A stretch of DNA of 64,000 nucleotides from Bacilli bacterium (GCA_047973085.1 JBKEBI010000070.1:1338-65337); one strand, 5' to 3'. Counted from the stretch's first letter, positions 40,888-62,647 are shown. The notes: generated from the letters alone by a model not told the origin. A program made the numbers and translations.

Positions 40888-41105
40888 AAAAAAATCCTTA
40901 AATTAATAAGGACGAAAATTCGCGGTACCACCTTAATTTACATAAAATCTAATTTATGCATCTCAAATCTTTAACGCAGATATACGCATGAACTTACATA
41001 TCAACCCATGTACTCCAAAGCCATTTTCATTATACTACTTTCATTTGTTTTCACCAAGCACAAACTCTCTGGGCAAAGCACATATAACTACTCTCTTCTT
41101 CAACG
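40888..41105 (-). promoter_or_regulatory. T-box riboswitch leader of metG (Met-specific), with its own promoter
   Basis: Minus strand carries the conserved T-box sequence AAGGTGGTACCGCG (plus-strand cgcggtaccacc at 40921-40932). There is an AGAGAG GA-motif near the 5' end (Stem I), AUG triplets in Stem I, and a hairpin plus U-run just before the SD. The upstream promoter has -35 TTGAAA, a 17-bp spacer and -10 TAAAAT at about 41113-41141. Confidence 0.6.
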
Positions 41106-41148
41106 TATTCTAATTTTAACATATAAATATCACAATTTCAATATTTTA

Positions 41149-44100
41149 CTATTTACAATTAATTTTTTTAGTAACTATTATAGCTTCATCATTTACCACA
41201 TCAAACATCATTTTATCAATTATTCTAGTTCGTTTAAAATTATATTCAAATTTTTCAGTATTTGTAATTATAATTCTATTTTTTATCTCACTTAAAACTT
41301 TACTATTTACATCTCTGTAATAAAAACTTTTATAAAAATTACCCGAAACAAAATCATCATATATAAGAACTACATCACTTACACAAACCTTAGAAAAATC
41401 TCTTAAATATAAATAATTATCTTCCTTTGAAATAGCAAATTTTTTTTTAGATGGTTTTAAGTGTGATAAATAATTTTTAAATTCGACAACATCATTTCCA
41501 TATAAACATATACCTTCTCCTATCAAAAAATCTGTTTTACTCTGTTTTTTATAAAATAAAGTAAAGAGTTCCCCAGGATCGCTAACAGATAACATAAATT
41601 TATTATCAAATATCTTTATTAATCTAGATAACCTTCCTGATATGCCTAACGCAGTAATTATAATTCTTATATTGTCATATCGTCTGTAGCCACACTCTTC
41701 AATAAAACTTAGTAATAGTTCTGAGGTAAATAATTCAAAACCGTCTATAATGAAGTATGTATTTACTTTCAAAGTTTTTGCATAACTAATAAATATTTCA
41801 ATTTGAGTATCAGTATCAACATAAATATCCACTTTATTTATAAAACTATCATCTTTCCCAAAATATATTATACATCCATCAAATTTACTTATAATAGTTT
41901 TGATAAGCTCACTTTTCCCACTTTGCATTTTTCCTATAATAAGATAATTATCATGTGAAATTTCATATTCTGTAAAGTTTTTTCTATCACTAAAGTTAAG
42001 TAAAACTTTATTTGATTCTTCAACTGGAAAACTTTTCCATATAACATAATCTGTTTTTTGATACTTTAGATTTAAATTAAAAATGTTGTCATTAAGAATT
42101 GTAGTACTGAATTCATCAGCTCCATTTATTACAACATTACTTTTTTTAAAGTCAAGGCAATTGAATACCTTAATGTACGTATTATAATTATTGACAGACA
42201 CAATTGCCTCGCCAGAAAAACTAAAATATGCAGCTTCTTTACTACCAATAACCTCGATGCTGTCTTGAACTGAATTTACTTTTAAACATATCTTATAATT
42301 AATATTACTCTTTAACTGCTCTGTCAATATTCCTGAAGATTTTTGTAAAGATAATATTAAAAAAATACCTAAACTTCTTCCTACTCTTGCTATTGATTCA
42401 ATTTCTTCTATAATATTTCCTAGATTTTTTTTAACTTCAGCAAATTCATCAATTATAATGAACAACCTTGGCAATTTAAAATGATTATTGATTTCATTGT
42501 ACTCACTAATTCCATACTTACTAAAAAGCTTTTGACGATATATCAATTCACTTTTAATAGAAGCAAGAACATTTTCATAATTTCCACTTAAATTTGAAAA
42601 CACTGAAGCAATATGTGCAAGGGATATGACCTTTGAAATCAACGAATCTCCTTTAAAATCAATTATCCCAATTACTGCTTCTTCGGGTGTATAATGTAGT
42701 GCAATTTCCATAATTATCTGCAGTAGTAAAACACTCTTCCCACTTCCTGTCATTCCAACTATTAATCCATGTGGGCCTTTATTTTCTATATCTAATACGT
42801 AATTTTCACTTAATCTTATTCCAAACTTAATAAAATTAATTTTTTTACTACTATTAAAAATTATTTTTTTCTCGTAAATATATAAAATTCTTGAATTCAA
42901 AGTAATATAACTATATAAATAGAAAACCCCCGTTTTAGTTATAAATCTATTTCTAAATAAATTATTTACTTCAAGTATATCATCTGTCATATCTTTAACA
43001 TCTAAATAAATTACCTTGTTATCATTCATGAAATTACTTAAGTTTATATTAACATTACAAACAATAATACATCCCTTAAAATTTTTATAAAAAGAAAAAT
43101 TATTCATACTGTAATATTCAGCATTTACTATAAAATCATAACGACTAAAATTTCCTATAAAAATTATTCTTTGGTAAAAATCACAATTTATTATTGATAA
43201 TAATAAATTATGTAAAAACAATGTAGCATATTTGCCCACAAAAGTAATTTGCTTCAAATAAATTTTAAAATGAAAACTTCCCAACTCTTTAACTTTTTGT
43301 GTAAAATGGATTTTCAAATTTTTCTCAGTAATTCTTGCATTAACATTAATTGGTTTTAATATATAGCCAATGCACATATTTTTTTGTTTAATTAGTTTAA
43401 ATTCAGTTATTAAATAATTTTTACGTAAATCTTTTTTTATTATTAAAAATAGCTTATTGAGAGCTAAATCAAAATTTTGCTGAACAAATCTATTATAGTA
43501 TTCAACTTTCCTCTTTTGTTTAAAATACATTACTAAAGAGGCACTAACAGTTGAAATACTGCTAGCTAACATAAAAATAATCATGCTACTTCTTCTTGTA
43601 AAAAAAGAGAGTAAAATCATTACTACCACCATTATTACGGGAGGAATAATATATCTTGAAATATTTTCTTGAAACAATTGAAGCGTATCATTGTAGTTAA
43701 ATTCATAATCAAACTTACTTTCATAATCTTTTTTGATTGTATCTAATTCATTATATATAAAATAAGAATTTCCTTTATATTTTCCTTTTTGATTTAAGAA
43801 AACTAAGTTTTGATCAATAATAAACTTATAAACTCCCGTACAAATACTTAGAGATCCATTAAAATAAAATTCCCCTTGTTCATAAAATTTGTTTTCTACA
43901 TAAACTGGAGAGGTAAATTTAATATATTTTTTCTCTAAATTTATTTCTACATCGGATGTTGTAAGAATAATTTCATTAAGTTTAAACTTCTCTTTTTTAA
44001 TACAAATCCTATTTCCAATACATCCAATTACATAAAAAAATAAGTATTTTTCAATATAGTAAAGTTTATTTAATTTAAAATTATTTTCAAAAATAAAATT

Positions 44101-44235
44101 AGAAGTTAATTTTTTATTGCTAATCATAATAAAAAGTTTATTATTTATTATATTCAAATATGTTTTTTTATCTTCTTTTATATAATATTCAAAATAATAA
44201 TCTTTTACATATATTCTTATAAATACTTGACTCAT
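41149..44235 (-). CDS. essC: FtsK/SpoIIIE-family ATPase of type VII secretion (EssC/YukB-like), short 1028-aa form
   Basis: N-terminal FHA-like region, two TM helices (IIPPVIMVVVMILLSFF ... MIIFMLASSISTV), Walker A GMTGSGKS, Walker B IIIDEFAEV, and a second P-loop GKMQSGKS. Directly downstream of WXG100 and YukD-like genes. Confidence 0.8.
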   Translation of the reverse strand: MSQVFIRIYVKDYYFEYYIKEDKKTYLNIINNKLFIMISNKKLTSNFIFENNFKLNKLYYIEKYLFFYVIGCIGNRICIKKEKFKLNEIILTTSDVEINLEKKYIKFTSPVYVENKFYEQGEFYFNGSLSICTGVYKFIIDQNLVFLNQKGKYKGNSYFIYNELDTIKKDYESKFDYEFNYNDTLQLFQENISRYIIPPVIMVVVMILLSFFTRRSSMIIFMLASSISTVSASLVMYFKQKRKVEYYNRFVQQNFDLALNKLFLIIKKDLRKNYLITEFKLIKQKNMCIGYILKPINVNARITEKNLKIHFTQKVKELGSFHFKIYLKQITFVGKYATLFLHNLLLSIINCDFYQRIIFIGNFSRYDFIVNAEYYSMNNFSFYKNFKGCIIVCNVNINLSNFMNDNKVIYLDVKDMTDDILEVNNLFRNRFITKTGVFYLYSYITLNSRILYIYEKKIIFNSSKKINFIKFGIRLSENYVLDIENKGPHGLIVGMTGSGKSVLLLQIIMEIALHYTPEEAVIGIIDFKGDSLISKVISLAHIASVFSNLSGNYENVLASIKSELIYRQKLFSKYGISEYNEINNHFKLPRLFIIIDEFAEVKKNLGNIIEEIESIARVGRSLGIFLILSLQKSSGILTEQLKSNINYKICLKVNSVQDSIEVIGSKEAAYFSFSGEAIVSVNNYNTYIKVFNCLDFKKSNVVINGADEFSTTILNDNIFNLNLKYQKTDYVIWKSFPVEESNKVLLNFSDRKNFTEYEISHDNYLIIGKMQSGKSELIKTIISKFDGCIIYFGKDDSFINKVDIYVDTDTQIEIFISYAKTLKVNTYFIIDGFELFTSELLLSFIEECGYRRYDNIRIIITALGISGRLSRLIKIFDNKFMLSVSDPGELFTLFYKKQSKTDFLIGEGICLYGNDVVEFKNYLSHLKPSKKKFAISKEDNYLYLRDFSKVCVSDVVLIYDDFVSGNFYKSFYYRDVNSKVLSEIKNRIIITNTEKFEYNFKRTRIIDKMMFDVVNDEAIIVTKKINCK

Positions 44236-44435
44236 AGAAAGATAACATCTCCAGTTCTAATATCAGTATCATAAATTAGCTTGCTTACATCATAGTAGCA
44301 ATCATTAAATAAGCTATAAACATACTTATTTTCTACTCCAAAAATTTTACATATTTCAGAAATTGTAGCAAAAATATTGCAATCTATGCAATATTTTTTA
44401 CCATCCACAATAGCATCAATAAATATTCTATCCAA
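44232..44435 (-). CDS. esaB: YukD/EsaB-like small ubiquitin-fold protein
   Basis: 67 aa ending in the TGDVIFL ubiquitin-like C-terminus. Lies between the WXG100 and essC genes and is translationally coupled to both. Confidence 0.5.
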   Translation of the reverse strand: MDRIFIDAIVDGKKYCIDCNIFATISEICKIFGVENKYVYSLFNDCYYDVSKLIYDTDIRTGDVIFL

Positions 44436-44706
44436 GAATTGTTTTATCGACTTCAGAAATAGATTCTGCTGTATGTTTAATTACTCTACTAGTTTCTAAG
44501 ATAACTTCTTTTAGTCTTAAAATTGATGGCTTTACCTCTAAATAATTTTTTTCAAATTTATTTGCTGAAGCTCCTTCCCAATATGTTTGTAATTCAATAA
44601 GCATATTATCCAAATTTCTCACCATTTCTTCAACATTATCTGACTGCCTTTCATATTTAATTGCAACTGCTAGCATCTGTTCCACATCTAATTTAATTCT
44701 ACTCAT
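44428..44706 (-). CDS. esxA: WXG100-family (ESAT-6-like) secreted protein
   Basis: 92 aa helical hairpin with a central W-x-G (LQTYWEGASANKF). Confidence 0.8.
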   Translation of the reverse strand: MSRIKLDVEQMLAVAIKYERQSDNVEEMVRNLDNMLIELQTYWEGASANKFEKNYLEVKPSILRLKEVILETSRVIKHTAESISEVDKTILG

Positions 44707-44781
44707 TTTATCATCTCCTCACTAAATATGTTCTGTATTATTATTTCATTTCCTACAAAAAAAAGAAGTTATATATAACTT

Positions 44782-47151: not shown

Positions 47152-47805
47152 TTAATTCATTGCATAAAATGCCTTTAATTCACTAAAATATAAATTTAAA
47201 TTTTCAACTATATCTTCAAGCTCTAGCTCATTTTCATCAGCTGAGTTAAACTTTGATAAAGTATTTTTTTCTACATTATACAAGTATTGATTATAATATA
47301 TTTCTAATTCTAATTCCTCAGTATTACACTCATCAATACTACAATCAACATAAATTTTTTCTTCAATTAAAAGCGTATATTCATGATTATTATATATACT
47401 TATTATAAATTCAGTTTCATCATTATTTATTTTAGTAATAAAATTAGTACTATTATTTAAATTTTGATCATAGTCCTTTGAAAAATAATATGTTTCAATG
47501 GGATTTTCTACTTTATCATATTTATTTTCAATTGTTTCCTTACTAACTTTTACAAATGAATATTTATTCATAAAAGTACTGGGTTCATATATGCTATAAG
47601 AATTTGCATATGCAACTTCTTCTAAATCATCTATTTCTCTTTTTTCATTATAGATATAATTTAAAACCTCTATTCTAGAATCAGTTTCTGTTTGACTAAC
47701 GTCACTGCTATTTTTAGTGCTGAGCACATAAAATCCGACTGCTAATAAAATAAAAGCTACTACCAAACCTTGTATAATTATCATTTTTTTATTAATTTTT
47801 TTCAT
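47152..47805 (-). CDS. Membrane-anchored hypothetical protein
   Basis: N-terminal TM helix (IIIQGLVVAFILLAVGFYVL) and an acidic, low-complexity ectodomain. Confidence 0.35.
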   Translation of the reverse strand: MKKINKKMIIIQGLVVAFILLAVGFYVLSTKNSSDVSQTETDSRIEVLNYIYNEKREIDDLEEVAYANSYSIYEPSTFMNKYSFVKVSKETIENKYDKVENPIETYYFSKDYDQNLNNSTNFITKINNDETEFIISIYNNHEYTLLIEEKIYVDCSIDECNTEELELEIYYNQYLYNVEKNTLSKFNSADENELELEDIVENLNLYFSELKAFYAMN

Positions 47806-47953
47806 TTAGTTTAGTCCCCATTTCAATTTTTATCCAAATATACTTTAACATATTTTCACAAAAATAACAAACAATCCGTCTAATTAATTTAAATCATTGA
47901 TTTTAATAATTTCTTAACATATAATAATATATAGATATATTTGGAGGTTAAAA

Positions 47954-48189
47954 TGACTGACTTTAATAAAGTAGAATTTATAACAAATAAAAATATAAAA
48001 TACCATGTAACATTACTAACAAATTTATTTTTTGGTATGTTTGGAGTTCATCGTATTATAAATAAGAAATTTATTAGCGGATTTATTATGCTTGGAATCG
48101 GCGTTTTTTCATCAATTTTATGGTTGATATCACTATTTGTTGATTCAACACTATTTACAACGATAACAATAGGATTTAATCAGCAATAA
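47954..48189 (+). CDS. TM2-domain small membrane protein
   Basis: FGMFGVHRIINKKFISGFIMLGIG matches the TM2 G-x-x-G-x-HRF motif. GGAGG SD lies before the ATG at 47954. Confidence 0.5.
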
Positions 48190-48191
48190 AT

Positions 48192-48899
48192 ATGTGGAAA
48201 CTAATTGATTTATCCTTAATATTAACAAAAAATTTTAAGAATAAAAATGGAGAATATATTACTATCAACAAGCCCTTTTGGAAAATTTGGAGTAATATTT
48301 TATCAATCTGCATAATTATCCTTTCACTTTTGATTACTAGCATTGCTGGATTTGTTATAGTTATTAAAAATGTTACATACAATAGTAAGTATATAGCTGA
48401 AGAAGTAGAGGCATGTTTAAATGATCCAGAAAATGTAAACGTACTAAAAAATGAGAAAGCTATAGCTTCATTTTTTGAAAATAAGGGATATGATGAAATA
48501 GAAAGTAGTTTCCCTTATGAAAAAAAATTTCAGAATAAGATTGATAAAGATATTTTTTTAGAGTTTTCTTACTATATAAACTATGATAAGACAATTACAT
48601 GTAATGTTAGAATGTTATATACTGCTGATGAAGATTATATAGTAACACTATACCCTATTAGTTCTGAATCCGACTTTTCTAATAAGTCGAGTATTTATGT
48701 AAACTTAAGTGCAAGTTATGATGAGTATATAGTCGTTCATGCAAATCCAAACGAATTAGTTTACATCTCCGTAAATAATGGTAGTGATTATGAAAGTATT
48801 TCTAATAATAAATTTGAAAATAAGTATGAAAAAGAATATAACTTAACAATCGATGCTATTGATATTTTTACAATAGAATACTCTAATATTATTAAATAA
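48192..48899 (+). CDS. Membrane-anchored hypothetical protein
   Basis: N-terminal TM helix followed by a ~170-aa domain of unknown function; translationally coupled to the TM2 gene. Confidence 0.35.
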   Translation: MWKLIDLSLILTKNFKNKNGEYITINKPFWKIWSNILSICIIILSLLITSIAGFVIVIKNVTYNSKYIAEEVEACLNDPENVNVLKNEKAIASFFENKGYDEIESSFPYEKKFQNKIDKDIFLEFSYYINYDKTITCNVRMLYTADEDYIVTLYPISSESDFSNKSSIYVNLSASYDEYIVVHANPNELVYISVNNGSDYESISNNKFENKYEKEYNLTIDAIDIFTIEYSNIIK

Positions 48900-50345: not shown

Positions 50346-51719
50346 ATGATGACTAATTTTATAGTGTTTTATACAGTGTCATTTATATTAGAATACCTTA
50401 TTATATATTTAACAATTGGTCGGAATTTTTATCTAGTAAAAAAGCTTAAATTTAACAGTTACATAAAAATTATAATATTAATAGTATTAAGCATTTTTAT
50501 TAGAACACTTACTTCTATGAATGGGGTCCCCCATTTTATAAATATTATTACATTTATATTATTATTTATATATTTACTAATTTTATCAAAAAATTCATTT
50601 AAGTCAGCATTTTATTGGATAGTAATGACTTCATTTATTATATTTATTTCAGAAGTTTTTGTATTTATGATTGATAATATATTTATAGATAAAACCTTTC
50701 TTTCATCTTCTATGATAATTCGCATAAATACTACAGAACGCTTTATTAAACTATTTATACTTATGCTTGCTTCAAAGTTAGTAATATATATTTTATTAAA
50801 ACTGTTTACATCTCTTGTTTTAGAAAAAAAATCTATTCTTCAAAACTATAGTGTAGAATTTAGAATAATCATTGCAATTATGTTTATGCTTTTATTATTT
50901 ATAGCAATTGTTCAATTAAATTTAAGAGGATTTCTTAAAAACCCCATTATATTTATCAACTTATTTATAATAATATTATTTAGCTTATCAATACTATTTT
51001 TATTCTTATTTTTAAGAATAGCTAAGACTGCAGATGAACATATTAAAAGACAAAAGCTTGTAGAAACTCTCGAAAATAAAATCAAATTAAATAATACTAT
51101 TGAAACTGCTGAAGCTAATTTAAAAGCACTTAGGCACAATTTTTCCAATATATTTACAGTAATAACTGGACTTTTAAATCTTCAAGAATATTCTAAACTT
51201 AAAGAATATATTAATGAAATTAATGATGATATATATGATGCACATAAAATTGTTTTTTTAGCAAATAAACCCTTAGAAATCCTTGTAAATAACAAATTAA
51301 ATATAGCAAAACAACATAATATAAATTTTAAAACAATTATATCAACACACTCAATTACAAATTTTAAGAATAGTGATTTGTGTGACATAATGGGAAATAT
51401 TTGGGATAATGCTATTGATGCTGCTACAGAAGAACAAGGTGTAAAAACTATTATCTCAATAATGAATGTTCAAGATGGAAATTATGTAATAACGTGTGAA
51501 AATCCATACATTATTCCTCCAAATAGAATTGGAAATAAGTTTATTTCCACTAAAGGAGAAAATCGTGGTTTTGGTACGAAAAATGTTAATGCTATTGTAA
51601 AAAAATATAATGGTAACTTAAAATATGAGTTTAGAGATGGAATATGCAATGTATCAATAAAATTTCCTATCAAGAAACTAGATGAAAATAAAATTGAAAT
51701 TATTTTAAATGATGTGTAG
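50346..51719 (+). CDS. AgrC/ComD-type (HPK10) membrane sensor histidine kinase
   Basis: Six or more N-terminal TM helices, a phospho-acceptor H in LRHNFSN, and a C-terminal GHKL region (GENRGFGTKNV). Confidence 0.8.
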   Translation: MMTNFIVFYTVSFILEYLIIYLTIGRNFYLVKKLKFNSYIKIIILIVLSIFIRTLTSMNGVPHFINIITFILLFIYLLILSKNSFKSAFYWIVMTSFIIFISEVFVFMIDNIFIDKTFLSSSMIIRINTTERFIKLFILMLASKLVIYILLKLFTSLVLEKKSILQNYSVEFRIIIAIMFMLLLFIAIVQLNLRGFLKNPIIFINLFIIILFSLSILFLFLFLRIAKTADEHIKRQKLVETLENKIKLNNTIETAEANLKALRHNFSNIFTVITGLLNLQEYSKLKEYINEINDDIYDAHKIVFLANKPLEILVNNKLNIAKQHNINFKTIISTHSITNFKNSDLCDIMGNIWDNAIDAATEEQGVKTIISIMNVQDGNYVITCENPYIIPPNRIGNKFISTKGENRGFGTKNVNAIVKKYNGNLKYEFRDGICNVSIKFPIKKLDENKIEIILNDV

Positions 51720-51728
51720 GTGAGTTGA

Positions 51729-52454
51729 ATGGGGTATAATATACTAATCTGTGAAGATAATAAATATGCATTAAAAATAAATGATTCATACATAAAAAAA
51801 GCGTTAAGTGATATGAAAATAAATGGATGTATTCATACATACACTAATCCAGAAGTATTCTTTAGTGATGCCTCACATTTGGAGTTTGATATAGCATTCC
51901 TCGATATTAGATTTACAAATTCAAAATACTCTGGAGTAGATATTGCAAAAAAATTGAATGAAACAAATGATAATATTGTAATAGCATTTATTACTGGAGA
52001 GACAATTGATGTGACTGAAGCATACGAAGTAAGAGCATTTGATTATATAAAAAAGCCTATTATATGTAGTGACTTTCAATATACTTTTGCTAGAATTATA
52101 AAGCAAGCTGCATCTATAAAACATTATAATAGACCAAACTATATCTATTTAAGAACAAATTATTTGAAACAAAAAATTAGAACATCCGAAATTATTTATA
52201 CTGAAAAAATCGGTCATTCAATTGAAATAAATTTAAAAAATGGCAAAAAAATTATCGCAAACCATAGTACTAAGGAATTATGTGCTATGCTTGATAATAC
52301 ATTTTCAAGACCAAATCAAACAAATATTGTAAATCTAAATTATATAAATTATATTGATAAAAAAAATCTTGTTTTAAAAAATAGTTTAAAGTTAAAAATT
52401 TCAAGACATTTTAATAAGTCATTTATAGAAGATTATAGCAAATTTAATATTTAA
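51729..52454 (+). CDS. LytTR-family response regulator (AgrA/ComE-like)
   Basis: Receiver domain (ILICEDN ... FLDIRF) and a C-terminal LytTR DNA-binding domain. Confidence 0.85.
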   Translation: MGYNILICEDNKYALKINDSYIKKALSDMKINGCIHTYTNPEVFFSDASHLEFDIAFLDIRFTNSKYSGVDIAKKLNETNDNIVIAFITGETIDVTEAYEVRAFDYIKKPIICSDFQYTFARIIKQAASIKHYNRPNYIYLRTNYLKQKIRTSEIIYTEKIGHSIEINLKNGKKIIANHSTKELCAMLDNTFSRPNQTNIVNLNYINYIDKKNLVLKNSLKLKISRHFNKSFIEDYSKFNI

Positions 52455-54575: not shown

Positions 54576-55055
54576 CAAAGAAAATGTATTGCTATTTGGT
54601 AATCCTAGTGTTGGTAAAACACACTTAGCAATAGGATTAGGAATAGAAGCATGCTTATCTAATAAAACTGTTTTATTTATAAGCGTACCTAATTTGATGA
54701 TAGAATTAAAAGAAGCAATGAATTTAAATCAAATTCAAAAGTACAAAAGGAATTTTGAAAAATATGACTTAGTAATATTGTATGAACTGGATATATATTT
54801 GAGAAGGAGGCAAACGAGGTATTATTTAACTTATTGTCAAATAGAAATAATAAAGGCTCAATAATACTTACAACCAACCTAACATTTGAGAGATGGAATG
54901 AAGTATTTAAGGATCAAGTATTAACTGCTACAATTGTTGATAGATTAGCTCATAAGTCACATATCATTGATTTAACAGGTGAAAGTTTTAGAGCAAAGGA
55001 AACCATTGATTGGTTAAATAAAAATCAGGTTGCAAGTAGACTCATTTTCACTTGA
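54576..55055 (+). pseudogene. IS21-family IstB helper ATPase fragment (5'-truncated, internally frameshifted)
   Basis: Begins abruptly at the Walker A motif (LFGNPSVGKTHLAIGLG), continues LVILYELD (Walker B), then shifts frame into ...TTNLTFERWNEVF...DRLAHKSHIIDL. The N-terminal ~100 aa are missing exactly where the IS3 remnant abuts. Confidence 0.65.
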
Positions 55056-56748
55056 CAAATACATCATTGGGTCCTATGTTAATAAATATACAATTATCAA
55101 CTTTTTTAATATATCCTTTTTGTGGATAATATGTCATATCCTCAGAAATTTTTTCTTCTTCTACAACTGTTAAACTTTTTATATTACAAGCATTTACATC
55201 ATAACCCAAATAATTTATATATTTAATTAGATATTCTTGCTTCAAATTAGGATATCCTGTTGTTCCAAATGTGTCTAAATATACAATATTGCTATAATAT
55301 GAGAAATCATAGTAGTCTTTCCCTTCATTTTCTAATATTCCCCCATAAAACCTATTTTCAATTGTATTAAATATTTTTCCACGAAGTGTATTCTTTTCTA
55401 TCTGTATGATTGCATCATCATTTTCACTATCATCAATTTTATATTTACCAACAAAATAAATTTTTTGTTCCGTACCATATTTGCTCTCAACATCATGTAT
55501 TATTGTATAAAAAAATCTTTCTTGCTCTACATTCTTTTGCCAATCTCGTTCATAAAACATATTTTGCAAATGAGCACCAGAATATACAGCAAACGCAGAT
55601 ATTATTATAAAACCCTTTTTAAATATTTTTCTATCAAGCATTAAATAGACATATGCACTTCCAAACATCACGAATGTTGCCATAGTTTGAAGTGTTCTTG
55701 GGAGCTGCGACTTACCATCTACTATAGAAATACCAAAAATAGTTAAATTTATCATAATTAGAATAAAGAAATTTATCCATCTTGTTTTTCTATCTTTAAT
55801 AGTAAATATTCCAACAAACATTAAAATTGTTACTATTACATGAAACATGTGTGAAAAACTAAATAAAGCAACAAAATAGTGATCCACAAATATATTAATG
55901 ATCAAACTTTTCAAAGTATGTATGATAGAATCTGAACTTAACCATACACTTTCGGATATTGAAACTCGATCCAATTTATCCACATTTAAAATATTAATTA
56001 ATCCATTAGCAATCAAACTTTCAAAAATAGTAGCTACTATAATTACAATCATTGATATAATTAACAGCTGTAATAGACTAGTAACATTTATTTTACTATT
56101 TCGTGTACTACTAAATAAGCAAATAAATAATATCATCATAAAATACACAAAAACAAATGATTCATACGAGCTTATTAATAGTATCAATAGCAGAGTGATT
56201 ACAATTAAATATTTAATTTTTTGAGTAAGGCAATATTGTATAGTATATACTACTGCAAGTATTGATAGTAAATATCCAAGCGCAGTTAAAACTGTTACTA
56301 ATAAATATTTAAATATTAAAGCATTAGTCGGAAATGTTAACAATAATCCTGTAAATATAGCTAAAACTACATAGTTTTTTATCCCACTAATCATTTTTAA
56401 AAGGGCTGCAGTTAAAACTGAAGCAATTATAAAAATAATAATTGTTATGGCCATTGTAAAAAATACATGATATTGCATTACATCAAATACTTCATGCAAA
56501 ATTTGTCCTACAAATCTACCTTGACTTATAAGACCATAGTTATCAAAAAATCGAATTGTATCTAGATCATCAACACCTGTTGCATGAAAATAAAGAGAAA
56601 AGCCATATGTTAAAAACGTAAAAAAAAGCGTAATTAACATAAATATATTATTAAAAAACAATTTTCTAACATTTTTGAAATAATCATTTAAAAAATCTCC
56701 ATTATATTTAATACAATTAAATTTTAAAAGCTCTTTTAATTTATACAT
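55048..56748 (-). CDS. Polytopic membrane glycosyltransferase, GtrC/GtrII-like (paralog 1)
   Basis: 566 aa, about 12 TM helices, conserved DDLD...F...G.ISQGRFVGQ N-terminal loop and a C-terminal soluble domain. Located in an operon with gtrA and gtrB. Confidence 0.55.
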   Translation of the reverse strand: MYKLKELLKFNCIKYNGDFLNDYFKNVRKLFFNNIFMLITLFFTFLTYGFSLYFHATGVDDLDTIRFFDNYGLISQGRFVGQILHEVFDVMQYHVFFTMAITIIIFIIASVLTAALLKMISGIKNYVVLAIFTGLLLTFPTNALIFKYLLVTVLTALGYLLSILAVVYTIQYCLTQKIKYLIVITLLLILLISSYESFVFVYFMMILFICLFSSTRNSKINVTSLLQLLIISMIVIIVATIFESLIANGLINILNVDKLDRVSISESVWLSSDSIIHTLKSLIINIFVDHYFVALFSFSHMFHVIVTILMFVGIFTIKDRKTRWINFFILIMINLTIFGISIVDGKSQLPRTLQTMATFVMFGSAYVYLMLDRKIFKKGFIIISAFAVYSGAHLQNMFYERDWQKNVEQERFFYTIIHDVESKYGTEQKIYFVGKYKIDDSENDDAIIQIEKNTLRGKIFNTIENRFYGGILENEGKDYYDFSYYSNIVYLDTFGTTGYPNLKQEYLIKYINYLGYDVNACNIKSLTVVEEEKISEDMTYYPQKGYIKKVDNCIFINIGPNDVFVK

Positions 56749-56762
56749 TTTTATCTACCACT

Positions 56763-58456
56763 CCTTCTTATTCATCAATACTATTTTGTCCTATATTAAC
56801 AAATATACACCCATCTTGTTCTTTTATGTATCCATTTTGTGGATAATAATTCATATCTTTAGCCATATCTTTTTCTTCAGTTTCATCTAAATATTCAATA
56901 TCGCATGAATTCACATCATACCCTAAATATATAATATATCTAATAAAGTACTCTTGTTTATGTTATGTTTTAGCATAATCTCCAAAAACATCAATTAGCA
57001 CAGAACTACTGTAATATGCATATGCATAATAGTCAGAACCCTCATTAGTTAATTTGCTATCATAAAATCTTTTATTTATATAATTAAATATCTTTCCAGG
57101 ATAACTATCTTTAGTTATTTGTAAAACAGAATCATCATACCATTTCTGTTCAACATCATACTTACCAATAAAATATACATTTTGTCCACTACCATATTGA
57201 TATTCAACATCATGCATAAGCGTATTTAAAAAGTTTTCTTGTTTTAAATGATTTTTCCATTCTCTTTCATAATATAAATTTTGTAAATGCGCACTTGAAT
57301 ATATTGCAAAAGACACCACAATAATAAATGTTTTTTTAATCCACTTCTTACATAATGCAATATAAACATATCCACTACCAAACATAACAAAGGTTGAAAA
57401 AGTTTGCATTGTTCGCGCTAACTGTACTTTTCCTTCTACAACAGTTATTCCATAAACTGAAATATTTATTAAAATAATTATTAATATGCTTCTCAATAAA
57501 TATTTTCTATCGCTTACAAAAAAAGTAGCAACAAACATAAAAAATACAATTAAAACATAATACATATGAGAAAAATCTAAAAGTCCTATAAAGAAATAAT
57601 TAATAAAAATATTAAAGATTAGTCTTTTGATAGTATACATAGATGGTGATTTAAACCACATACTTTCAGATATAGCGACTCTATTTATTTTTTCTAAATC
57701 TAGGATGTAAATTAGTAAATTAGAAACTAATGATTCTATAAGTGTTGAAACTATTATTAATATACATACATATAATAAAAATTTTATGATTGACTGCGTT
57801 TTAAACCTACTATTAATTCTCAAACTAAATAAAATAAAAAATAAAATCATAGTAAAATAAACAAAAACAAATGATTCATATGAACTAATTGCAAAAACTA
57901 ATAAAGAGATTACTACTAAACTACTTTTGATTTTTTTCTCTAAAATAAAATGAATGGTATATACAACAGCAAATATAGATAGTATATATTCTAAGCTTGT
58001 TAAAACTGTAGCTAAAATAAATTCAAAAATAAAAGCATTTGTTGGAAAAACAAGCATTAAGGCTGTAAACAACGCAATCATAAAGTTATTCTTAATACCA
58101 CTTATCATTTTTAGCAATGCTGCTGTAAAAATAGATGCAACAATAAAGAGAATGATTGTAATAGCCATTGTAAAAAAAGCATGATTCCACATAATATCAA
58201 ATACTTCGTGTAATATTTGTCCAACAAATCTACCTTGCCTTATTAATCCATATTCAACGAAAAATCTATCTCTATCTAAATCATCAGCTCCTATTGCATG
58301 AAAATAAAGATAAAAGCCGTATGTTAAAAACGAAGTACCAAGTAGAAATAACATAAAACAATTACTTTTAATAAGTTCTTTTACTGTATCATAGTATTCT
58401 TTTAGAAAATTTCCATCATAAGTTAAAATATTATCTTTTTTCAATAATTTTTTCAT
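56763..58456 (-). pseudogene. GtrC/GtrII-like paralog 2, interrupted by an in-frame TAA at 56963-56965
   Basis: 497-aa ORF highly similar to paralog 1 (GADDLDRDRFFVEYGLIRQGRFVGQILHEVFD...). Homology to paralog 1's C-terminus (HKQEYFIRYIIYLGYDVNSCDI...NGYIKEQDGCIFVNIG) continues in the same frame directly after the TAA stop. Confidence 0.55.
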
Positions 58457-58477: not shown

Positions 58478-59374
58478 TTATTTTAAAGAGTCGCCTAATT
58501 TTTTAAATCCATTTTCTAAACTAATTCTAGGATGCCAATTAGGTAAAGTTTTGTAGGCTCTTTTTAATTTCATAATCTCCATAGGACGGTAGTCTTTTCC
58601 ACCCCAATTAACATTAATTTGGCAACCATTAACTTCTTCATATAATTTAACCGTATCTTTAACACTTAAAGTTACTGGTGAATATACATAAAATTCTTCA
58701 TATGTCTCTGAACTATTTATTAAATACTCGTGAGCACACACAAATGCCCTACATACATCTTCTGCATGGGTTAAATTCATATCTTGTTCTCCAAGTGTAA
58801 GATTTGTCTCAATATCAGTACCACAATTTTGTGCAATAAGATTTATTAGTTTTATTCTAATATCCTTTTCCGAATAATTGTCAAACAATTTCAATGTTAA
58901 ACATTTCATTTTTTCCACATCAGAATAATACTTCATCATATCAATAAATGCCTGTTTTGTCGCGGCATAGAGATTTGTTGGAATGTATTCATCTGTACTT
59001 GTAAAATGTTGTGAAAATGTACCTGTATTGATAAAATATTTAATATTATTTTTTTTCATCAACTCAAGCATATGTACTCCTAATTTAATATTACTATCAA
59101 GCATTCTATCAACATCGTTTATTGTATGAAAACCAACTATACAAGATGCTAAATGAAAAATAACATCGACAGTTTTGTTATTAAAGTATATTAAAAGCTT
59201 GTCAAGATCTCCATTATATTCATATACATCAATTTTATCTATAATATCAATCAAATTACTATCATTAAAATTTTCCACATCTAAAACTGTAACATTATAT
59301 CCATCATCAAGTAAGATTTTTACTAAATTAGATCCGATAAAACCAGCACCGCCAGTTACAATTGCATTTTTCAT
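58478..59374 (-). CDS. NAD(P)-dependent sugar epimerase/reductase (SDR), likely CDP-4-keto-6-deoxyhexose reductase/epimerase
   Basis: VTGGAGFIGSNL Rossmann motif and YAATK catalytic motif. Start taken at MKNAIVTGG (59374), immediately after the gtrB stop. Sits in the rfbFG/gtr operon. Confidence 0.65.
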   Translation of the reverse strand: MKNAIVTGGAGFIGSNLVKILLDDGYNVTVLDVENFNDSNLIDIIDKIDVYEYNGDLDKLLIYFNNKTVDVIFHLASCIVGFHTINDVDRMLDSNIKLGVHMLELMKKNNIKYFINTGTFSQHFTSTDEYIPTNLYAATKQAFIDMMKYYSDVEKMKCLTLKLFDNYSEKDIRIKLINLIAQNCGTDIETNLTLGEQDMNLTHAEDVCRAFVCAHEYLINSSETYEEFYVYSPVTLSVKDTVKLYEEVNGCQINVNWGGKDYRPMEIMKLKRAYKTLPNWHPRISLENGFKKLGDSLK

Positions 59375-59375
59375 C

Positions 59376-60323
59376 TTATTCACCATCCTCGGAGAAATTA
59401 ATTCTCTCTTCTTCAATTACATGAGGTCGCTTCATAACTCTTGTATTAATACTTAAAATATATTCTCCCACAATACCTATAAAAAATAATTGCACAGCCC
59501 CTAAAAAGAATACTCCAACTAAAAGTGATGGAAATCCTAAAGCAAATTTATCCCAATTTAACGCCTTTTGAAAGGCCACTACAATTGCAAAAATAAATGA
59601 TAAAAATCCAACAAAAACTCCCATAAAAATAGCTAATCTAAGAAAAACAGTAGTATATGAAGTTATTCCTTGCATTGCTACATCATAGTTTCGTATAAAA
59701 TTGAAATTTGAAAAACCTCTATTACTTTTTTCTTGAGTATATTGGATGATTTTAATATTTGATCCAAATTCAACTACAATCCCTTTAAGATATGGATTGG
59801 GATCGTCTATTTCATGCAAAATATTAATAAATTTTTTATCATACAAACCAAATCCAACAAAATGTTTAATTTGATCAATTTCACCAAATCTATCCATTAT
59901 CCAATAAAAAATTGATCTAAACTTAAACATTAACCAATTTTCCTTACTAACTAGCTTTTGTCCAACTACAACTTGATGCCCTTTTTCCCATTCAGATATA
60001 AAATCAACAATTAATTCAGGTGGATCTTGTAAATCTCCATAAACTAAAAAGGTAGCTTCACCAGAACCTTGTTTCAAAGCATGAAAAACATTTCTTGAAA
60101 ATCCAAAATTTTTACTATTAAAAATACATTTTACACGCTTATCTTGTGCTGCAAGTTTTCTAAGTAAAGTTCTTGTATTATCTTCAGAACAATTATCAGC
60201 AAAAATCAATTCAAAATCATAATTTAAAAGTTGACTTTCAAAAACACTTAAAATTCTATCATATATAACTTCAACACTTTTTTCTTCATTAAATGTAGGA
60301 ACTACTACACTAATTATTTTCAT
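59376..60323 (-). CDS. gtrB: GT2 polyprenyl-phosphate glycosyltransferase (GtrB/CsbB-like)
   Basis: VVVPTFNEE and ADNCSED GT-A motifs plus two C-terminal TM helices. Confidence 0.8.
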   Translation of the reverse strand: MKIISVVVPTFNEEKSVEVIYDRILSVFESQLLNYDFELIFADNCSEDNTRTLLRKLAAQDKRVKCIFNSKNFGFSRNVFHALKQGSGEATFLVYGDLQDPPELIVDFISEWEKGHQVVVGQKLVSKENWLMFKFRSIFYWIMDRFGEIDQIKHFVGFGLYDKKFINILHEIDDPNPYLKGIVVEFGSNIKIIQYTQEKSNRGFSNFNFIRNYDVAMQGITSYTTVFLRLAIFMGVFVGFLSFIFAIVVAFQKALNWDKFALGFPSLLVGVFFLGAVQLFFIGIVGEYILSINTRVMKRPHVIEEERINFSEDGE

Positions 60324-60711
60324 CTACTTTTCCCCCTTTAAAGCCCCAATATTTATTTAAAATATAGTTTATTGGAGTTGTTATCATCACTCCAAAAATA
60401 GGAGCAATTTTTTCGTTTATACTCATAATATCAACAAATAAATACATTAAAAAAGTATATACAATTAAAGAAAATATATAAATTGAATACACTTTTACTA
60501 TACTGTTAAAACTATGTTTTACTTTGAAAACAAAGAATCTATTCATAACATATGCATTTAAAATACTTAAAAAATAAGCAAAAATTGTTGCTATTAAATA
60601 ATGAATATTTAATAATAGTAATAAATTATAAACTGAAATATTAATTGCAAAGTTAATAAAACCTATAATACAAAAAAATATAAATTTTTTAGAAAAAAAA
60701 TCATTACGCAT
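60310..60711 (-). CDS. gtrA: GtrA-family small membrane protein (lipid-linked sugar flippase)
   Basis: 133 aa with 4 TM helices, located immediately upstream of gtrB. Confidence 0.7.
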   Translation of the reverse strand: MRNDFFSKKFIFFCIIGFINFAINISVYNLLLLLNIHYLIATIFAYFLSILNAYVMNRFFVFKVKHSFNSIVKVYSIYIFSLIVYTFLMYLFVDIMSINEKIAPIFGVMITTPINYILNKYWGFKGGKVDENN

Positions 60712-60738
60712 TTATTATCTCCTTAAATCGTATAATAT

Positions 60739-61779
60739 TTATAGCTTATCAATAAAGTATTGAATCTGTCTATTTGTCACATCATTTTTATCACTACATT
60801 TTGCCCATTCTACACATAAAGCAATCGCTTCATCAACATTAAAAAGAGGTTGCCAATTTAAAATGTTTTTTGATTTAGAACAATCAAGTTTTAAAAATCC
60901 AGCTTCATGTGGTCCATTATTATTAATAATTTTAAATGAAGCATTTTCCTTCCACTCATTACAAAACTTTTCTACTAGAGTACCTGTTGTAATACAATCT
61001 TCTTCATTTGGACCAAAATTATAACATCCTTCAAAACTTTTATTATTATATTGCTTTATTGCAAGCAATAAATACCCACTTATACAATCCATAACATGCT
61101 GATAAGGTCTTGTAGAATTTGGATTCCTAATAATGATTTCTTCCTTGTTAGCTGCATATTTTATGCAATCAGGTATTATTCTATTTGCAGAAAAGTCTCC
61201 TCCACCAATTACATTACCTGATCTTGCAGTAGAAACTGAAATATTATCTTTTAAATCGAAAAAAGATTTTTTATAACTATATGAAACAAGTTCACTACAT
61301 GATTTTGAATTTGAATATGGATCATATCCACATAACTCTTCATTTTCACGATATCCCCAATTCCACTCTCTATTTAAATAAACTTTATCTGTAGTTACGT
61401 TAATAAAAGATTTAATGCAATCTAAACTTCTAACAACTTCTAAAATATTAACTGTTCCCATCACATTAACATCATATGTATACACTGGTTCATCATATGA
61501 ATCTCTAACTAACGGCTGTGCTGCAAGATGTAAAACTATATCAGGTTGAAACTTTTCAATACAAGACTTTAAAAAAGTAAAATCTCTTATATCTCCTTCA
61601 AAATGAGTAATCTTATTTTTTGTTTTCAAAATATCAAACATCTCATATGTTTGATGAGAATAGCCTGCAACTTCTGCACCGAATTTTAGCAATATTTCTG
61701 TTAACCAAGTTCCCTTAAAACCTGTATGTCCAGTAATAAGAACTTTCTTACCTCTATAAAAATCTACCATTTTTTCCAT
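60739..61779 (-). CDS. rfbG: CDP-glucose 4,6-dehydratase
   Basis: KKVLITGHTGFKGTWL Rossmann N-terminus, an SDR-extended fold, and adjacency to rfbF. Confidence 0.85.
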   Translation of the reverse strand: MEKMVDFYRGKKVLITGHTGFKGTWLTEILLKFGAEVAGYSHQTYEMFDILKTKNKITHFEGDIRDFTFLKSCIEKFQPDIVLHLAAQPLVRDSYDEPVYTYDVNVMGTVNILEVVRSLDCIKSFINVTTDKVYLNREWNWGYRENEELCGYDPYSNSKSCSELVSYSYKKSFFDLKDNISVSTARSGNVIGGGDFSANRIIPDCIKYAANKEEIIIRNPNSTRPYQHVMDCISGYLLLAIKQYNNKSFEGCYNFGPNEEDCITTGTLVEKFCNEWKENASFKIINNNGPHEAGFLKLDCSKSKNILNWQPLFNVDEAIALCVEWAKCSDKNDVTNRQIQYFIDKL

Positions 61780-62534
61780 TTTGCTTTTCCTTCTTCAATA
61801 AGTTCTTCTAGATATTCTTTATCTCTTAATGTGTCCATACACTGCCAAAATCCATTATATTTATATGCACCAAGTTCATTATTTTGAGCAAGAGATTCAA
61901 GCGGAAAACGCTCTAAGATTTCATTATCATTTCTTAAATAATCAAATATTTCTTTTTCTAGAACCATAAATCCACCATTAATATACCCCATATCATCTTT
62001 TGATTTTTCTCTAAATGCATGGATCTCAGATTTATTCCCTATTTCCAAAATACCAAATCTTCCTTCTGGACGTACAGCAGTAAGTGTAGCTTTAAATTTA
62101 GAATTCTTATGAAATTCAATTAGTTCGTTAATATTTAAATCACATACTCCATCTCCATATGTTAGCATAAAAGTTTCATCTCCAACATACTCTTGAATTC
62201 GTTTAACTCTTCCACCAGTCATTGTATCTAATCCAGTATCAATAAGAGTTACATTCCATGGTTCAGAAAAATTATTATGAACTTTCATAGTATTATCTTT
62301 CATATTAAAAGTTACATCCGAAGTATGTAAATAATAATTTGCAAAGTACTCTTTAATTTTATAAGCTTTATATCCAAGACAAATAATAAAGTCATTATGT
62401 CCATAATGTGAATACATTTTCATTATGTGCCACAAAATTGGTTTTCCTCCAATTTCTATCATTGGTTTTGGAATTAAATGACTCTCTTCAGATATTCTTG
62501 TACCATATCCACCAGCTAAGATTACTACTTTCAT
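61764..62534 (-). CDS. rfbF: Glucose-1-phosphate cytidylyltransferase
   Basis: MKVVILAGGYGTRISEE...KPMIEIGGKPILWHIMKMYS is a hallmark of RfbF/DdhA. Confidence 0.9.
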   Translation of the reverse strand: MKVVILAGGYGTRISEESHLIPKPMIEIGGKPILWHIMKMYSHYGHNDFIICLGYKAYKIKEYFANYYLHTSDVTFNMKDNTMKVHNNFSEPWNVTLIDTGLDTMTGGRVKRIQEYVGDETFMLTYGDGVCDLNINELIEFHKNSKFKATLTAVRPEGRFGILEIGNKSEIHAFREKSKDDMGYINGGFMVLEKEIFDYLRNDNEILERFPLESLAQNNELGAYKYNGFWQCMDTLRDKEYLEELIEEGKAKWKKW

Positions 62535-62647
62535 AAATACACCTCTTTTATTTATTTATTTTTTCTATTATAACATATTTGTATTACATTTTACCATTAA
62601 ATATCATAGTATTTTAAAATCTATTAAATTAATAATCTTAATAATTT

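What the first reader, a model, noticed from the sequence alone, without database searches (positions are those of the whole stretch)
41149..44706. Minimal three-gene type VIIb secretion core (WXG100 - YukD-like - short EssC) with no EssB/EsaA/EssA
The minus strand carries a translationally coupled esxA-like WXG100 gene (W-E-G motif), a 67-aa ubiquitin-fold YukD/EsaB-like gene, and a 1028-aa FtsK/SpoIIIE ATPase with an FHA-like N-terminus, 2 TM helices and only two clear P-loops.

Staphylococcus/Bacillus T7SSb loci also need EssB(YukC), EsaA(YueB) and EssA, and their EssC is about 1480 aa with three or four ATPase domains. None of those extra components is present. The neighbours are metG and its T-box leader on one side and a HAD phosphatase on the other.

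This could be a stripped-down or ancestral WXG100 export unit, or a degenerating system. No LXG or other toxin substrate lies next to it.
Basis: partly seen in the sequence, partly recalled or inferred. Interest (0 to 1): 0.65.

Follow-up and report, generated by a model that had tools for sequence, protein, structure and literature searches.

The report
Three-gene stripped-down type VII secretion module
An uncultured low-GC Bacilli lineage keeps a conserved three-gene operon: a WXG100 secreted protein, a tiny YukD-like protein and a shortened EssC-type membrane ATPase. No other known type VII secretion part lies nearby, so it is a candidate for the smallest natural version of this machine.

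Summary
The minus strand carries three overlapping ORFs: a 92-aa WXG100 protein, a 67-aa protein and a 1028-aa FtsK/SpoIIIE ATPase.

- **WXG100:** it is EsxA-type. W43, G45 and D87 sit at the positions of the S. intermedius EsxA export motif.
- **Small protein:** it has no Pfam hit but is a remote YukD/EsaB relative by profile tests. Its fold could not be confirmed.
- **Other parts:** no EssB, EsaA, EssA or LXG homologue lies in the 64-kb window or in the flanks of related loci.
- **Conservation:** the trio is intact in 8 related loci; a near-identical sister strain carries an apparent frameshift in the ATPase. In five of them it sits beside HAD and/or metG. WXG100 is about as conserved as MetRS.
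- **Rarity:** the ATPase family has about 7 clusters among 1.8 billion representatives.

It fits none of the published T7SSa-j arrangements, so I call it a new variant of a known kind.

Limits: absence of partner genes elsewhere in the genome could not be tested, and secretion is inferred.

The parts
44707..44781 (-). Upstream intergenic region. An AT-only inverted repeat plus a T-run follows the HAD stop codon (44781-44757). A GAGGAG Shine-Dalgarno sequence lies about 8 nt before the WXG100 ATG. The operon promoter is presumed to lie here.
   Evidence: Sequence read. The promoter/terminator scan was uninformative in this AT-rich DNA. Promoter placement is inferred.
44428..44706 (-). EsxA-type WXG100 protein, 92 aa. 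It carries WxG (W43, G45) and a C-terminal PhixxxD motif (I83...D87).
   Evidence: PF06013 1.1e-12 and TIGR03930 60.4 bits, above cutoff. Best PDB matches are Geobacillus EsxA 3zbh (1.8e-15) and S. aureus EsxA. W43, G45 and D87 are invariant in 8 family members. These are the positions of the export motif shown to be essential in S. intermedius EsxA (PMC13355648).
44232..44435 (-). Small 67-aa protein, a remote YukD/EsaB (TsxB)-like candidate. It has a TTG start inside the WXG100 stop region, and its stop overlaps the ATPase ATG.
   Evidence: The ORF, its TTG start ('MDR...') and the ATGA overlap are conserved in seven related loci; the most divergent locus (L091) keeps a 63-aa ORF with a different start and overlap. 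hhalign against a 73-sequence YukD profile gives E=2.3e-4, colinear over the full length. That score of 23.2 compares with a column-shuffle null of 10.1+/-2.4, with 0 of 150 shuffles reaching it. The A2 HMM ranks YukD ORFs 1, 2, 3, 5 and 9 among 17,191 ORFs, of which 72 are YukD. There is no direct Pfam, NCBIfam or PDB hit, and the AF2 single-sequence model is unreliable (pLDDT 43).
41149..44235 (-). Shortened EssC-type membrane ATPase, 1028 aa.
   Evidence: PF01580 1.4e-20 and EssC TIGR03928 1.9e-64, below cutoff. The best PDB sequence match is B. subtilis YukB 9qks at 1.1e-60. The AF2 model has mean pLDDT 80. Foldseek gives EccC 4nh0 at 2.6e-26 and EssC 4lya at 2.7e-23.
43693..44235 (-). ATPase residues 1-181: an all-beta N-terminal region modelled as tandem FHA-like domains.
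43516..43659 (-). ATPase residues 193-240: a two-helix TM hairpin, followed by a stalk helix to about residue 276.
   Evidence: The profile match to the YukB TM and stalk region has E=6.8e-8. BLASTP to B. mycoides EssC residues 230-283 gives 2e-7. Helices are seen in the AF2 model.
42847..43374 (-). ATPase residues 288-463: a DUF/D0-like alpha/beta domain with no Walker A. The TM-to-D1 span that contains it is about 135 residues shorter than in canonical EssC.
42166..42819 (-). ATPase residues 473-690: the D1 catalytic domain. Walker A is GMTGSGKS (494-501), Walker B is IIIDEFAE (593-600), and ARxGRSLG follows.
   Evidence: 38% identity to B. mycoides EssC D1, 5e-44. The motifs are conserved across 12 family members, apart from one conservative substitution each in Walker A.
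41461..42102 (-). ATPase residues 712-925: a D2-equivalent degenerate NTPase domain. It has a Walker A-like GKMQSGKS (768-775), and its Walker B lacks the DE pair (FIIDG).
   Evidence: hhalign of the C-terminal region alone hits EssC D2 at 97.4% probability (1.2e-11). D3 is matched only at the P-loop, at 37%. The P-loop is lost in 4 of 12 family members.
41152..41418 (-). ATPase residues 940-1028: a family-specific beta-rich C-terminal domain that sits where canonical EssC has D3.
   Evidence: AF2 secondary structure. Conserved residues include E997, M1009 and D1012. It matches no known family. Its function is unknown.

Best explanation
This is a conserved, chromosomally inherited type VII secretion module reduced to the three near-universal T7SS parts. 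No known accessory subunit is encoded next to it.

**Proposed mechanism.**
- The 1028-aa EssC-type protein inserts through a two-helix hairpin and, like EccC and YukB, oligomerises into the membrane translocase (inferred).
- Its D1 domain is the only motor. D2 is a structural or recognition domain, and D3 has been lost.
- The 67-aa YukD-like protein is made by translational coupling. It is proposed to dock between the N-terminal FHA-like domains and the DUF, as YukD does on YukB, to stabilise assembly (inferred).
- The 92-aa EsxA-type protein forms a helical-hairpin homodimer displaying the WxG plus PhixxxD87 export motif. The ATPase recognises it and exports it (inferred).
- A dimer of about 20 kDa could cross peptidoglycan unaided, which might make an EsaA-like conduit dispensable (speculative).

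**Shown:** gene identities, domain architecture, motif conservation, synteny, and absence of known partners nearby.

**Inferred:** oligomerisation, docking, export and self-sufficiency.
For: **Identity of the three genes.**

**Gene order and coupling.** The order matches B. subtilis yukE-yukD-(yukC)-yukB, with overlapping stop and start codons.

**Export motif.** W43, G45 and D87 are invariant. They lie at the positions where the D87A mutation abolishes EsxA secretion in S. intermedius (PMC13355648).

**ATPase domains.** The D1 motifs are conserved in all 12 members, while the D2 P-loop is dispensable. This agrees with the finding that only the D1 Walker motifs are needed for export in T7SSb (PMC13355648).

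**YukD docking model.** YukD sits between the FHA domains and the DUF of YukB (PMC12637312). Both domains are retained in the model here.

**Conservation.** The trio is intact in L001, L003, L004, L005, L087, L089, L090 and L091 and, as far as the contig reaches, in L088. ATPase identity to the window falls as low as 31-34%. WXG100 identity (54-83%) is on a par with MetRS (68-77%).

**No known partners nearby.**
- Every window ORF of 290 aa or more was assigned to another family by Pfam.
- B. mycoides EsaA, EssA, EssB and EsaB find nothing in the window or family loci, while EsxA and EssC from the same locus do.
- Pfam lists for the flanks of L001, L004, L005 and L091 show no T7SS family.
Against: - Whole-genome absence of EssB, EsaA, EssA or novel partners could not be tested. 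Only 64 kb of this MAG and up to 10 kb of flank in relatives were seen.
- In studied T7SSb systems, EssB, EsaA and EssA are essential according to the literature (from memory), and C-terminal truncations of EssC removing one or more ATPase domains abolish secretion (PMC13355648). A D3-less, partner-less machine therefore contradicts current experimental experience.
- The small protein's ubiquitin fold is not confirmed (pLDDT 43).
- A strain 98.5% identical in nucleotides (L095) carries a +1 insertion in a G-run that splits the ATPase. The same truncated product occurs in two assemblies.
- Pairwise dN/dS for the ATPase is 0.37, against 0.07 for metG.
- No expression or secretion data exist.
Confidence: 0.6

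Rival explanations
1. Split or incompletely recognised system. The trio is only the conserved core. Essential membrane partners, either EssB/EsaA/EssA homologues or novel lineage-specific proteins, are encoded elsewhere in the genome or among unannotated neighbours.
For: Every characterised or predicted T7SS subtype has at least 5 components (PMC11217815). The retained tandem FHA-like module is the surface that binds the EssB/YukC pseudokinase in B. subtilis, which hints at a partner. Two membrane proteins with no Pfam hit lie 2.4-4 kb upstream (47152-47805 and 48192-48899). The rest of the genome was not seen.
Against: In all described subtypes the core components cluster with the ATPase (PMC11217815). 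Here both flanks are housekeeping genes in five loci beside the window. The 217-aa membrane protein is absent from the L001 neighbourhood, so it does not travel with the trio. In the most divergent locus (L091) the trio keeps its organisation with different downstream genes.
Confidence: 0.25
2. Degenerating remnant of a canonical T7SSb locus that no longer secretes.
For: D3 is lost and the N-terminal and DUF regions are shortened. The D2 P-loop is lost in 4 of 12 members. An apparent frameshift occurs in a sister strain. The ATPase dN/dS of 0.37 is higher than for the neighbouring metG.
Against: Intact ORFs are kept, with translational coupling. Sequence constraint on WXG100 equals that on MetRS, and the export motif is invariant. 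The D1 catalytic motifs are conserved. The same architecture persists across lineages whose ATPases share only 31-52% identity. The L095 insertion creates a G7 run together with two adjacent substitutions, a pattern compatible with a sequencing artefact.
Confidence: 0.1
3. An FtsK, TcpA or TraG-type DNA translocase or conjugative coupling protein that happens to lie next to a WXG100 gene.
Against: Sequence profiles favour YukB (1e-60) and EccC (1e-43) over FtsK (1e-16) and TcpA (2e-15). Foldseek ranks EccC and EssC first. The TM hairpin, DUF and FHA modules match EssC, YukB and EccC specifically. No FtsK_gamma or FtsK_4TM domain is present. No full-length relative occurs on 72,556 plasmids, and the best plasmid hits are annotated essC. 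Linkage to WXG100 and the YukD-like gene is fixed.
Confidence: 0.03

Closest known systems
T7SSb of Bacillus subtilis (YukE-YukD-YukC-YukB-YueB-YueC) and Staphylococcus aureus (EsxA-EsaA-EssA-EsaB-EssB-EssC)
   Same: It has an EsxA-type homodimer-class WXG100 protein with the WxG/PhixxxD motif and a small YukD/EsaB-like gene between esxA and the ATPase. The ATPase has a tandem FHA-like N-terminus, two TM helices, a DUF, a catalytic D1 and a D2. The best sequence matches are YukB and EssC.
   Different: No EssB/YukC, EsaA/YueB or EssA/YueC lies nearby. The ATPase lacks D3 and is about 470 residues shorter. It scores 218 bits against the 778-bit EssC model cutoff. The small protein is 63-67 aa rather than about 80 and falls below the Pfam YukD threshold. 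No LXG toxin or Lap genes are adjacent.
T7SSc-T7SSj variants (Garrett, Higginson & Palmer 2024, PMC11217815), especially the simplest ones: T7SSg (TsgA1/A2/B/C/L) and T7SSd (5 components)
   Same: It follows the same logic: a TsxA (WXG100), TsxB (ubiquitin-like) and TsxC (ATPase) core in Bacillota, with lineage-specific reduction or replacement of accessory parts.
   Different: All of c-j are described as having four NTPase domains and at least two further components, such as kinases, PPM phosphatases, FHA proteins, TsxI or TsgL. Here no such neighbours were found and only D0-D2 are present. T7SSg and T7SSh lack FHA domains, whereas this ATPase keeps an FHA-like module.
Mycobacterial/actinobacterial T7SSa (EccC with EsxA/B; ESX-4 as the smallest, from memory)
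   Same: It has an EccC-like ATPase fold (4nh0 is the Foldseek top hit), a DUF domain similar to the EccC5 DUF, and a WXG100 substrate with a bipartite signal.
   Different: There is no EccB, EccD, EccE or MycP. It has a single WXG100 gene rather than a pair. It has an FHA-like N-terminus. The ubiquitin-like element is a separate small protein rather than a domain of EccD.
FtsK/SpoIIIE DNA translocases and TcpA-type conjugative coupling proteins
   Same: They share the RecA-like motor fold of D1.
   Different: There is no gamma domain and no 4-TM N-terminus. Similarity is lower than to EssC and EccC. Linkage is to WXG100 and YukD-like genes rather than to division or conjugation genes.

Membership tests
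T7SS in the broad sense (TsxA/TsxB/TsxC core, PMC11217815) | A WXG100 helical-hairpin protein encoded with the ATPase, carrying WxG and a C-terminal acidic export residue | tested here: met
   PF06013 and TIGR03930 score above cutoff. W43, G45 and D87 are invariant. EsxA structures are the best PDB matches.
T7SS in the broad sense (TsxA/TsxB/TsxC core, PMC11217815) | A membrane-anchored EssC/EccC-type FtsK-family ATPase (TM hairpin, DUF, catalytic D1) | tested here: met
T7SS in the broad sense (TsxA/TsxB/TsxC core, PMC11217815) | A small protein related to EsaB/YukD | tested here: met
   The evidence is at profile level only. hhalign gives E=2.3e-4, colinear, with 0 of 150 shuffles reaching the score. 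YukD ORFs rank 1, 2, 3, 5 and 9 of 17,191. Pfam PF08817 itself does not hit.
T7SS in the broad sense (TsxA/TsxB/TsxC core, PMC11217815) | Ubiquitin (beta-grasp) fold of the small protein | tested here: inconclusive
   The AF2 single-sequence model has pLDDT 43.
T7SS in the broad sense (TsxA/TsxB/TsxC core, PMC11217815) | An ATPase with four NTPase-like domains (D0-D3) | tested here: not met
   The C-terminal region aligns to D2 (97.4%), and D3 is matched only at the P-loop. Only 341 residues follow D1, against 626 in B. mycoides EssC.
Canonical T7SSb (Ess/Yuk) | EssB/YukC pseudokinase membrane protein in the locus | tested here: not met
   No PF10140-type hit occurs among window ORFs of 290 aa or more. 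B. mycoides EssB finds nothing. The rest of the genome could not be tested.
Canonical T7SSb (Ess/Yuk) | EsaA/YueB large polytopic protein in the locus | tested here: not met
   The window ORFs above 900 aa are RpoB and RpoC (by size and position; RpoB confirmed), a UvrA-like protein, Mfd and the ATPase itself. B. mycoides EsaA finds nothing.
Canonical T7SSb (Ess/Yuk) | EssA/YueC small membrane protein in the locus | tested here: not met
   B. mycoides EssA finds nothing in the window or family loci. Neighbouring small ORFs have other assignments or none. Sensitivity for such a short, divergent protein is low.
Canonical T7SSb (Ess/Yuk) | EssC N-terminal tandem FHA domains | tested here: met
Canonical T7SSb (Ess/Yuk) | NCBIfam EssC equivalog (TIGR03928) score above its cutoff | tested here: not met
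   218 bits against a cutoff of 778.4.
T7SSc-T7SSj (PMC11217815) | Subtype-specific accessory genes next to the ATPase (Ser/Thr kinase TsxD, PPM phosphatase TsxF, FHA protein TsxJ, TsxI, TsgL, EspG-like) | tested here: not met
   The neighbours are a HAD phosphatase, an rRNA methylase, a radical SAM protein, metG and PrsA. The same holds in related loci. Phylogenetic placement against subtype reference ATPases was not done.
FtsK/SpoIIIE DNA translocase or TcpA/TraG coupling protein | FtsK gamma and 4-TM domains, or a conjugation gene context, with best similarity to these families | tested here: not met
   No PF09397 or PF13491 hit. Scores are weaker than for EssC and EccC. No full-length plasmid relative exists.

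The most novel reading that the evidence does not exclude
The three genes are a self-sufficient secretion machine. An EssC-like hexamer with a single active motor domain, clamped by a mini-ubiquitin-like protein, would be all that is needed to export a WXG100 dimer across a Gram-positive membrane. That would identify the ATPase itself as the T7 translocon. It would also provide the smallest natural T7SS, an eleventh arrangement beside T7SSa-j.
Probability: 0.4. Interest if true: 0.8.

Novelty: new variant of a known kind. Interest (0 to 1): 0.55.

Why it matters
What forms the T7SSb channel, and which subunits are truly required, is still unresolved. In model organisms EssB, EsaA and EssA are reported as essential (from memory), and C-terminal truncations that remove EssC ATPase domains abolish secretion (PMC13355648). 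Here a naturally conserved operon keeps only the three near-universal parts, with a D3-less ATPase.

That offers a simple test system of about 3.6 kb and three proteins for reconstitution and structural work on the minimal translocon. It would also extend the catalogue of T7SS arrangements (T7SSa-j) into an uncultured, deep-branching Bacilli lineage.

If partner genes turn up elsewhere, the locus becomes just another divergent T7SS variant.

Tried and rejected
- **Window protein look-ups.** The look-up of encoding contigs on three window proteins returned nothing on record. The window was annotated with Pfam scans instead.
- **Genome-contig scan.** It therefore says nothing about whether the family is present among GTDB species.
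- **JGI metagenome scan.** WXG100 family patterns found no family member.
- **Small protein.**
  - The word-indexed homologue search found only its own cluster, because most gene callers miss this ORF.
  - Pfam, NCBIfam and PDB sequence searches were negative.
  - A single-sequence comparison with B. mycoides EsaB aligned only the C-terminal GD motif.
No fold search was run on that model.
- **afdb50 library.** It was unavailable.
- **Promoter and terminator scan.** It gave nothing above background in this AT-rich DNA.
- **Sample metadata.** A literature search for the sample and assembly accessions found nothing, so the habitat is unknown.
- **HAD phosphatase upstream.** I considered it as a T7SS-linked phosphatase, by analogy with the PPM phosphatases of other subtypes. 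I rejected it as unsupported. It is a Cof-type Hydrolase_3 protein. An inverted repeat plus a T-run separates it from the trio. It also sits in housekeeping synteny.


Full report
**Source and observation**

The window is a contig of an NCBI MAG labelled 'Bacilli bacterium'. Its proteins MFV0425139-MFV0425142 are annotated as MetRS, 'FtsK/SpoIIIE domain-containing protein', 'hypothetical protein' and 'WXG100 family type VII secretion target'. GC content is 24-33%.

RpoB is 74-92% identical only to unnamed metagenomic proteins, and about 64-65% identical to named Bacillales. The organism is therefore a deep, uncultured Bacilli lineage. It encodes D-Ala-D-Ala ligase, so it presumably makes peptidoglycan.

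WXG100 (44428-44706) overlaps the 67-aa ORF (44232-44435, TTG start) by 8 nt. That ORF's TGA stop overlaps the ATG of the 1028-aa ATPase (41149-44235) as ATGA. A GAGGAG ribosome-binding site precedes only the first gene. This supports translational coupling of the two downstream genes.

The flanks are as stated. On one side is the metG T-box leader (40905-41112, Rfam 126.8 bits). On the other is a Hydrolase_3 HAD phosphatase.

**The WXG100 protein**

- It passes the Pfam and NCBIfam cutoffs.
- A family profile matches T7SSb EsxA structures best: Geobacillus 3zbh at 1.8e-15, then S. aureus 2vs0 and 2vrz.
- In S. intermedius EsxA the export signal is W43/G45 plus D87 of a PhixxxD motif, and D87A abolishes secretion (PMC13355648).
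- This protein has W43-E-G45 and I83-S-E-V-D87. W43, G45 and D87 are invariant in all eight family sequences.
- Across lineages it is 54-83% identical, on a par with MetRS at 68-77%. The ATPase has drifted to 32-53% over the same comparisons.

**The ATPase**

*Sequence similarity.* A family profile hits B. subtilis YukB (9qks) at 1.1e-60 in two segments. One is the TM hairpin and stalk (E=6.8e-8). The other is D1. EccC follows at 1e-43, then FtsK at about 1e-16 and TcpA at 2e-15.

*Pairwise comparison.* BLASTP to an annotated B. mycoides EssC gives 38% identity over D1 (5e-44) and 33% over the TM hairpin (2e-7).

*Structure model.* AF2 with a 12-sequence family alignment gave mean pLDDT 80.
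- Foldseek ranks EccC (2.6e-26) and EssC D2-D3 (2.7e-23) ahead of FtsK and TcpA at about 1e-13.
- The FHA similarity is invisible at sequence level.

*C-terminal part.* Profile-profile alignment to 45 clostridial EssCs is colinear from the N-terminus to D2. The C-terminal third, aligned alone, hits D2 (97.4%, 1.2e-11), and D3 only at the P-loop.

*Resulting architecture.* FHA-like x2 (1-181), TM x2 (193-240), DUF (288-463), D1 (473-690), D2 (712-925), then a family-specific beta-rich tail (940-1028). There is no D3.

*Catalytic motifs.* D1 Walker A, Walker B and the ARxGRSLG motif are conserved in all 12 members. The D2 P-loop is replaced by E-E-R-L-type or other sequences in 4 of 12 members. 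D2 never has the DE pair in Walker B. The motor is therefore effectively a single-engine one. This agrees with the finding that only the D1 Walker motifs are needed for T7SSb export.

**The 67-aa protein**

It is missed by most gene callers. It is nevertheless conserved in every related locus. In seven related loci it has the same TTG start ('MDR...') and an ATGA overlap with the ATPase. The most divergent locus (L091) keeps a 63-aa ORF with a different start.

No library model hits it. To test remote homology I built a YukD profile from 73 small ORFs that lie immediately downstream of essC in clostridial loci. The profile was seeded with B. subtilis YukD, whose sequence I supplied from memory. 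One member of this profile was checked against Pfam and gave only a sub-threshold YukD match.
- hhalign against the small-protein alignment gives a full-length colinear match at E=2.3e-4.
- The score of 23.2 compares with 10.1+/-2.4 for 150 column-shuffled profiles, none of which reach it.
- In the reverse direction, an HMM of the small protein searched against all 17,191 ORF segments of those loci ranks YukD ORFs 1, 2, 3, 5 and 9, although only 72 YukD ORFs are present.
- The shared C-terminal 'I-x-[TN]-G-D-h-h-h-L' motif resembles YukD and EsaB.

I accept remote homology.

**Family size and conservation**

An exhaustive HMMER search of 1.84 billion representatives finds only about seven clusters at 50% identity with a full-length match (lengths 1009-1065, plus one fragment). 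Everything else matches only the NTPase domains.

Every locus that could be fetched keeps the trio. It is complete in L001, L003, L004, L005, L087, L089, L090 and L091, and is cut by the contig end in L088. It lies between HAD and metG in L001 and L004. HAD lies upstream in L005 and L006, and metG lies downstream in L087. In the most divergent member (L091) it is followed by alr. This pattern indicates long vertical inheritance of a stable unit rather than recent decay.

**Absence of other T7SS parts**

- Every window ORF of 290 aa or more was assigned to an unrelated family. Examples are RpoB/C, a UvrA-like protein, Mfd, SUF proteins, Ddl, TsaD, Obg, and glycosyl- and nucleotidyl-transferases.
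- Bona fide EsaA, EssA, EsaB and EssB from an annotated B. mycoides locus detect nothing in the window or family loci with filters off. EsxA and EssC from the same locus detect their counterparts at 1e-12 and 1e-47.
- No second WXG100 gene is present, and no LXG protein was detected.
- No full-length relative is found on plasmids.
- What cannot be excluded is a partner encoded elsewhere in the genome.

**Comparison with published work**

Garrett et al. 2024 (PMC11217815) define T7SSa-j. TsxA, TsxB and TsxC are the near-universal core. All new ATPases have four NTPase domains, and every subtype has at least five components.

The present system has the core only, and one NTPase domain fewer. It is best described as a further variant. 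It is closest to T7SSb in its ATPase N-terminus and in its EsxA.

**Caveats**

- A strain 98.5% identical in nucleotides (L095) has a +1 insertion, with two adjacent substitutions, that creates a G7 run at window position 43838 and splits the ATPase. The same truncated product occurs in two assemblies. This could be a poly-G artefact, phase variation or recent inactivation.
- Pairwise dN/dS for the ATPase is 0.37, against 0.07 for metG. The ATPase is constrained, but less tightly.
- All functional statements (oligomerisation, docking, export) are inferred by homology.

Noticed in passing
L095:877 (equivalent to window 43838); also proteins P0001 and P0122: A sister strain 98.5% identical in nucleotides has GGGAGT changed to GGGGGGG (a +1 insertion) in the FHA-like region. 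This splits the ATPase into 136-aa and 827-aa ORFs. The truncated product appears in two independent Logan assemblies. It could be a poly-G artefact, phase variation or pseudogenisation.
   Followed up: partly
window 40905-41141 (-): The metG T-box leader (Rfam RF00230, 126.8 bits) is preceded by a TG-extended promoter-like site (TTGAAA-17-TAAAAT, 41141-41113). This site starts 8 nt after the ATPase stop codon. No terminator lies between the ATPase and metG.
   Followed up: partly
window 50346-52454 (+): A GHKL histidine kinase and a LytTR response regulator lie 5.6 kb from the trio. Similar kinase/regulator pairs lie near essC in L058 (phmmer 3.5e-12 and 1.2e-7). A LytTR protein sits directly after essC in L039. 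T7SSi is reported to have a LytR-like regulator. A regulatory link is possible but untested.
   Followed up: no
window 47152-47805 (-), 47941-48189 (+), 48192-48899 (+): Two membrane proteins have no Pfam hit (217 aa with an N-terminal TM helix and an acidic body; 235 aa), and a TM2-domain protein lies between them. The 217-aa gene is present in L005 and L006 but absent from L001, so it does not track the trio.
   Followed up: partly
L039:8096-15800 (Butyrivibrio sp. NC3005), and about 70 other clostridial loci among L007-L086: Full-length (about 1500-1680 aa) clostridial essC genes are followed by a YukD-like ORF. In L039, the one locus scanned with Pfam, no EssB or EsaA was recognised among the ten neighbouring ORFs. 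These loci probably belong to the non-b T7SS variants of PMC11217815.
   Followed up: partly
window 10116-13703 (-): RpoB is only about 64-65% identical to any named taxon (Bacillales). It is 74-92% identical to a handful of unnamed metagenomic sequences, one of them on a 1.7-Mb JGI contig. The host is a deep uncultured Bacilli lineage, possibly with a small genome.
   Followed up: partly
window 55048-58456 (-): Two tandem paralogous GtrII-like glucosyltransferase membrane proteins (566 and 497 aa) sit next to a sugar-nucleotide and glycosyltransferase cluster (58478-63457).
   Followed up: no
window 41152-41418 (-), ATPase residues 940-1028: A conserved beta-rich C-terminal domain with no match to any family occupies the position of D3. 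It might have taken over substrate recognition.
   Followed up: no
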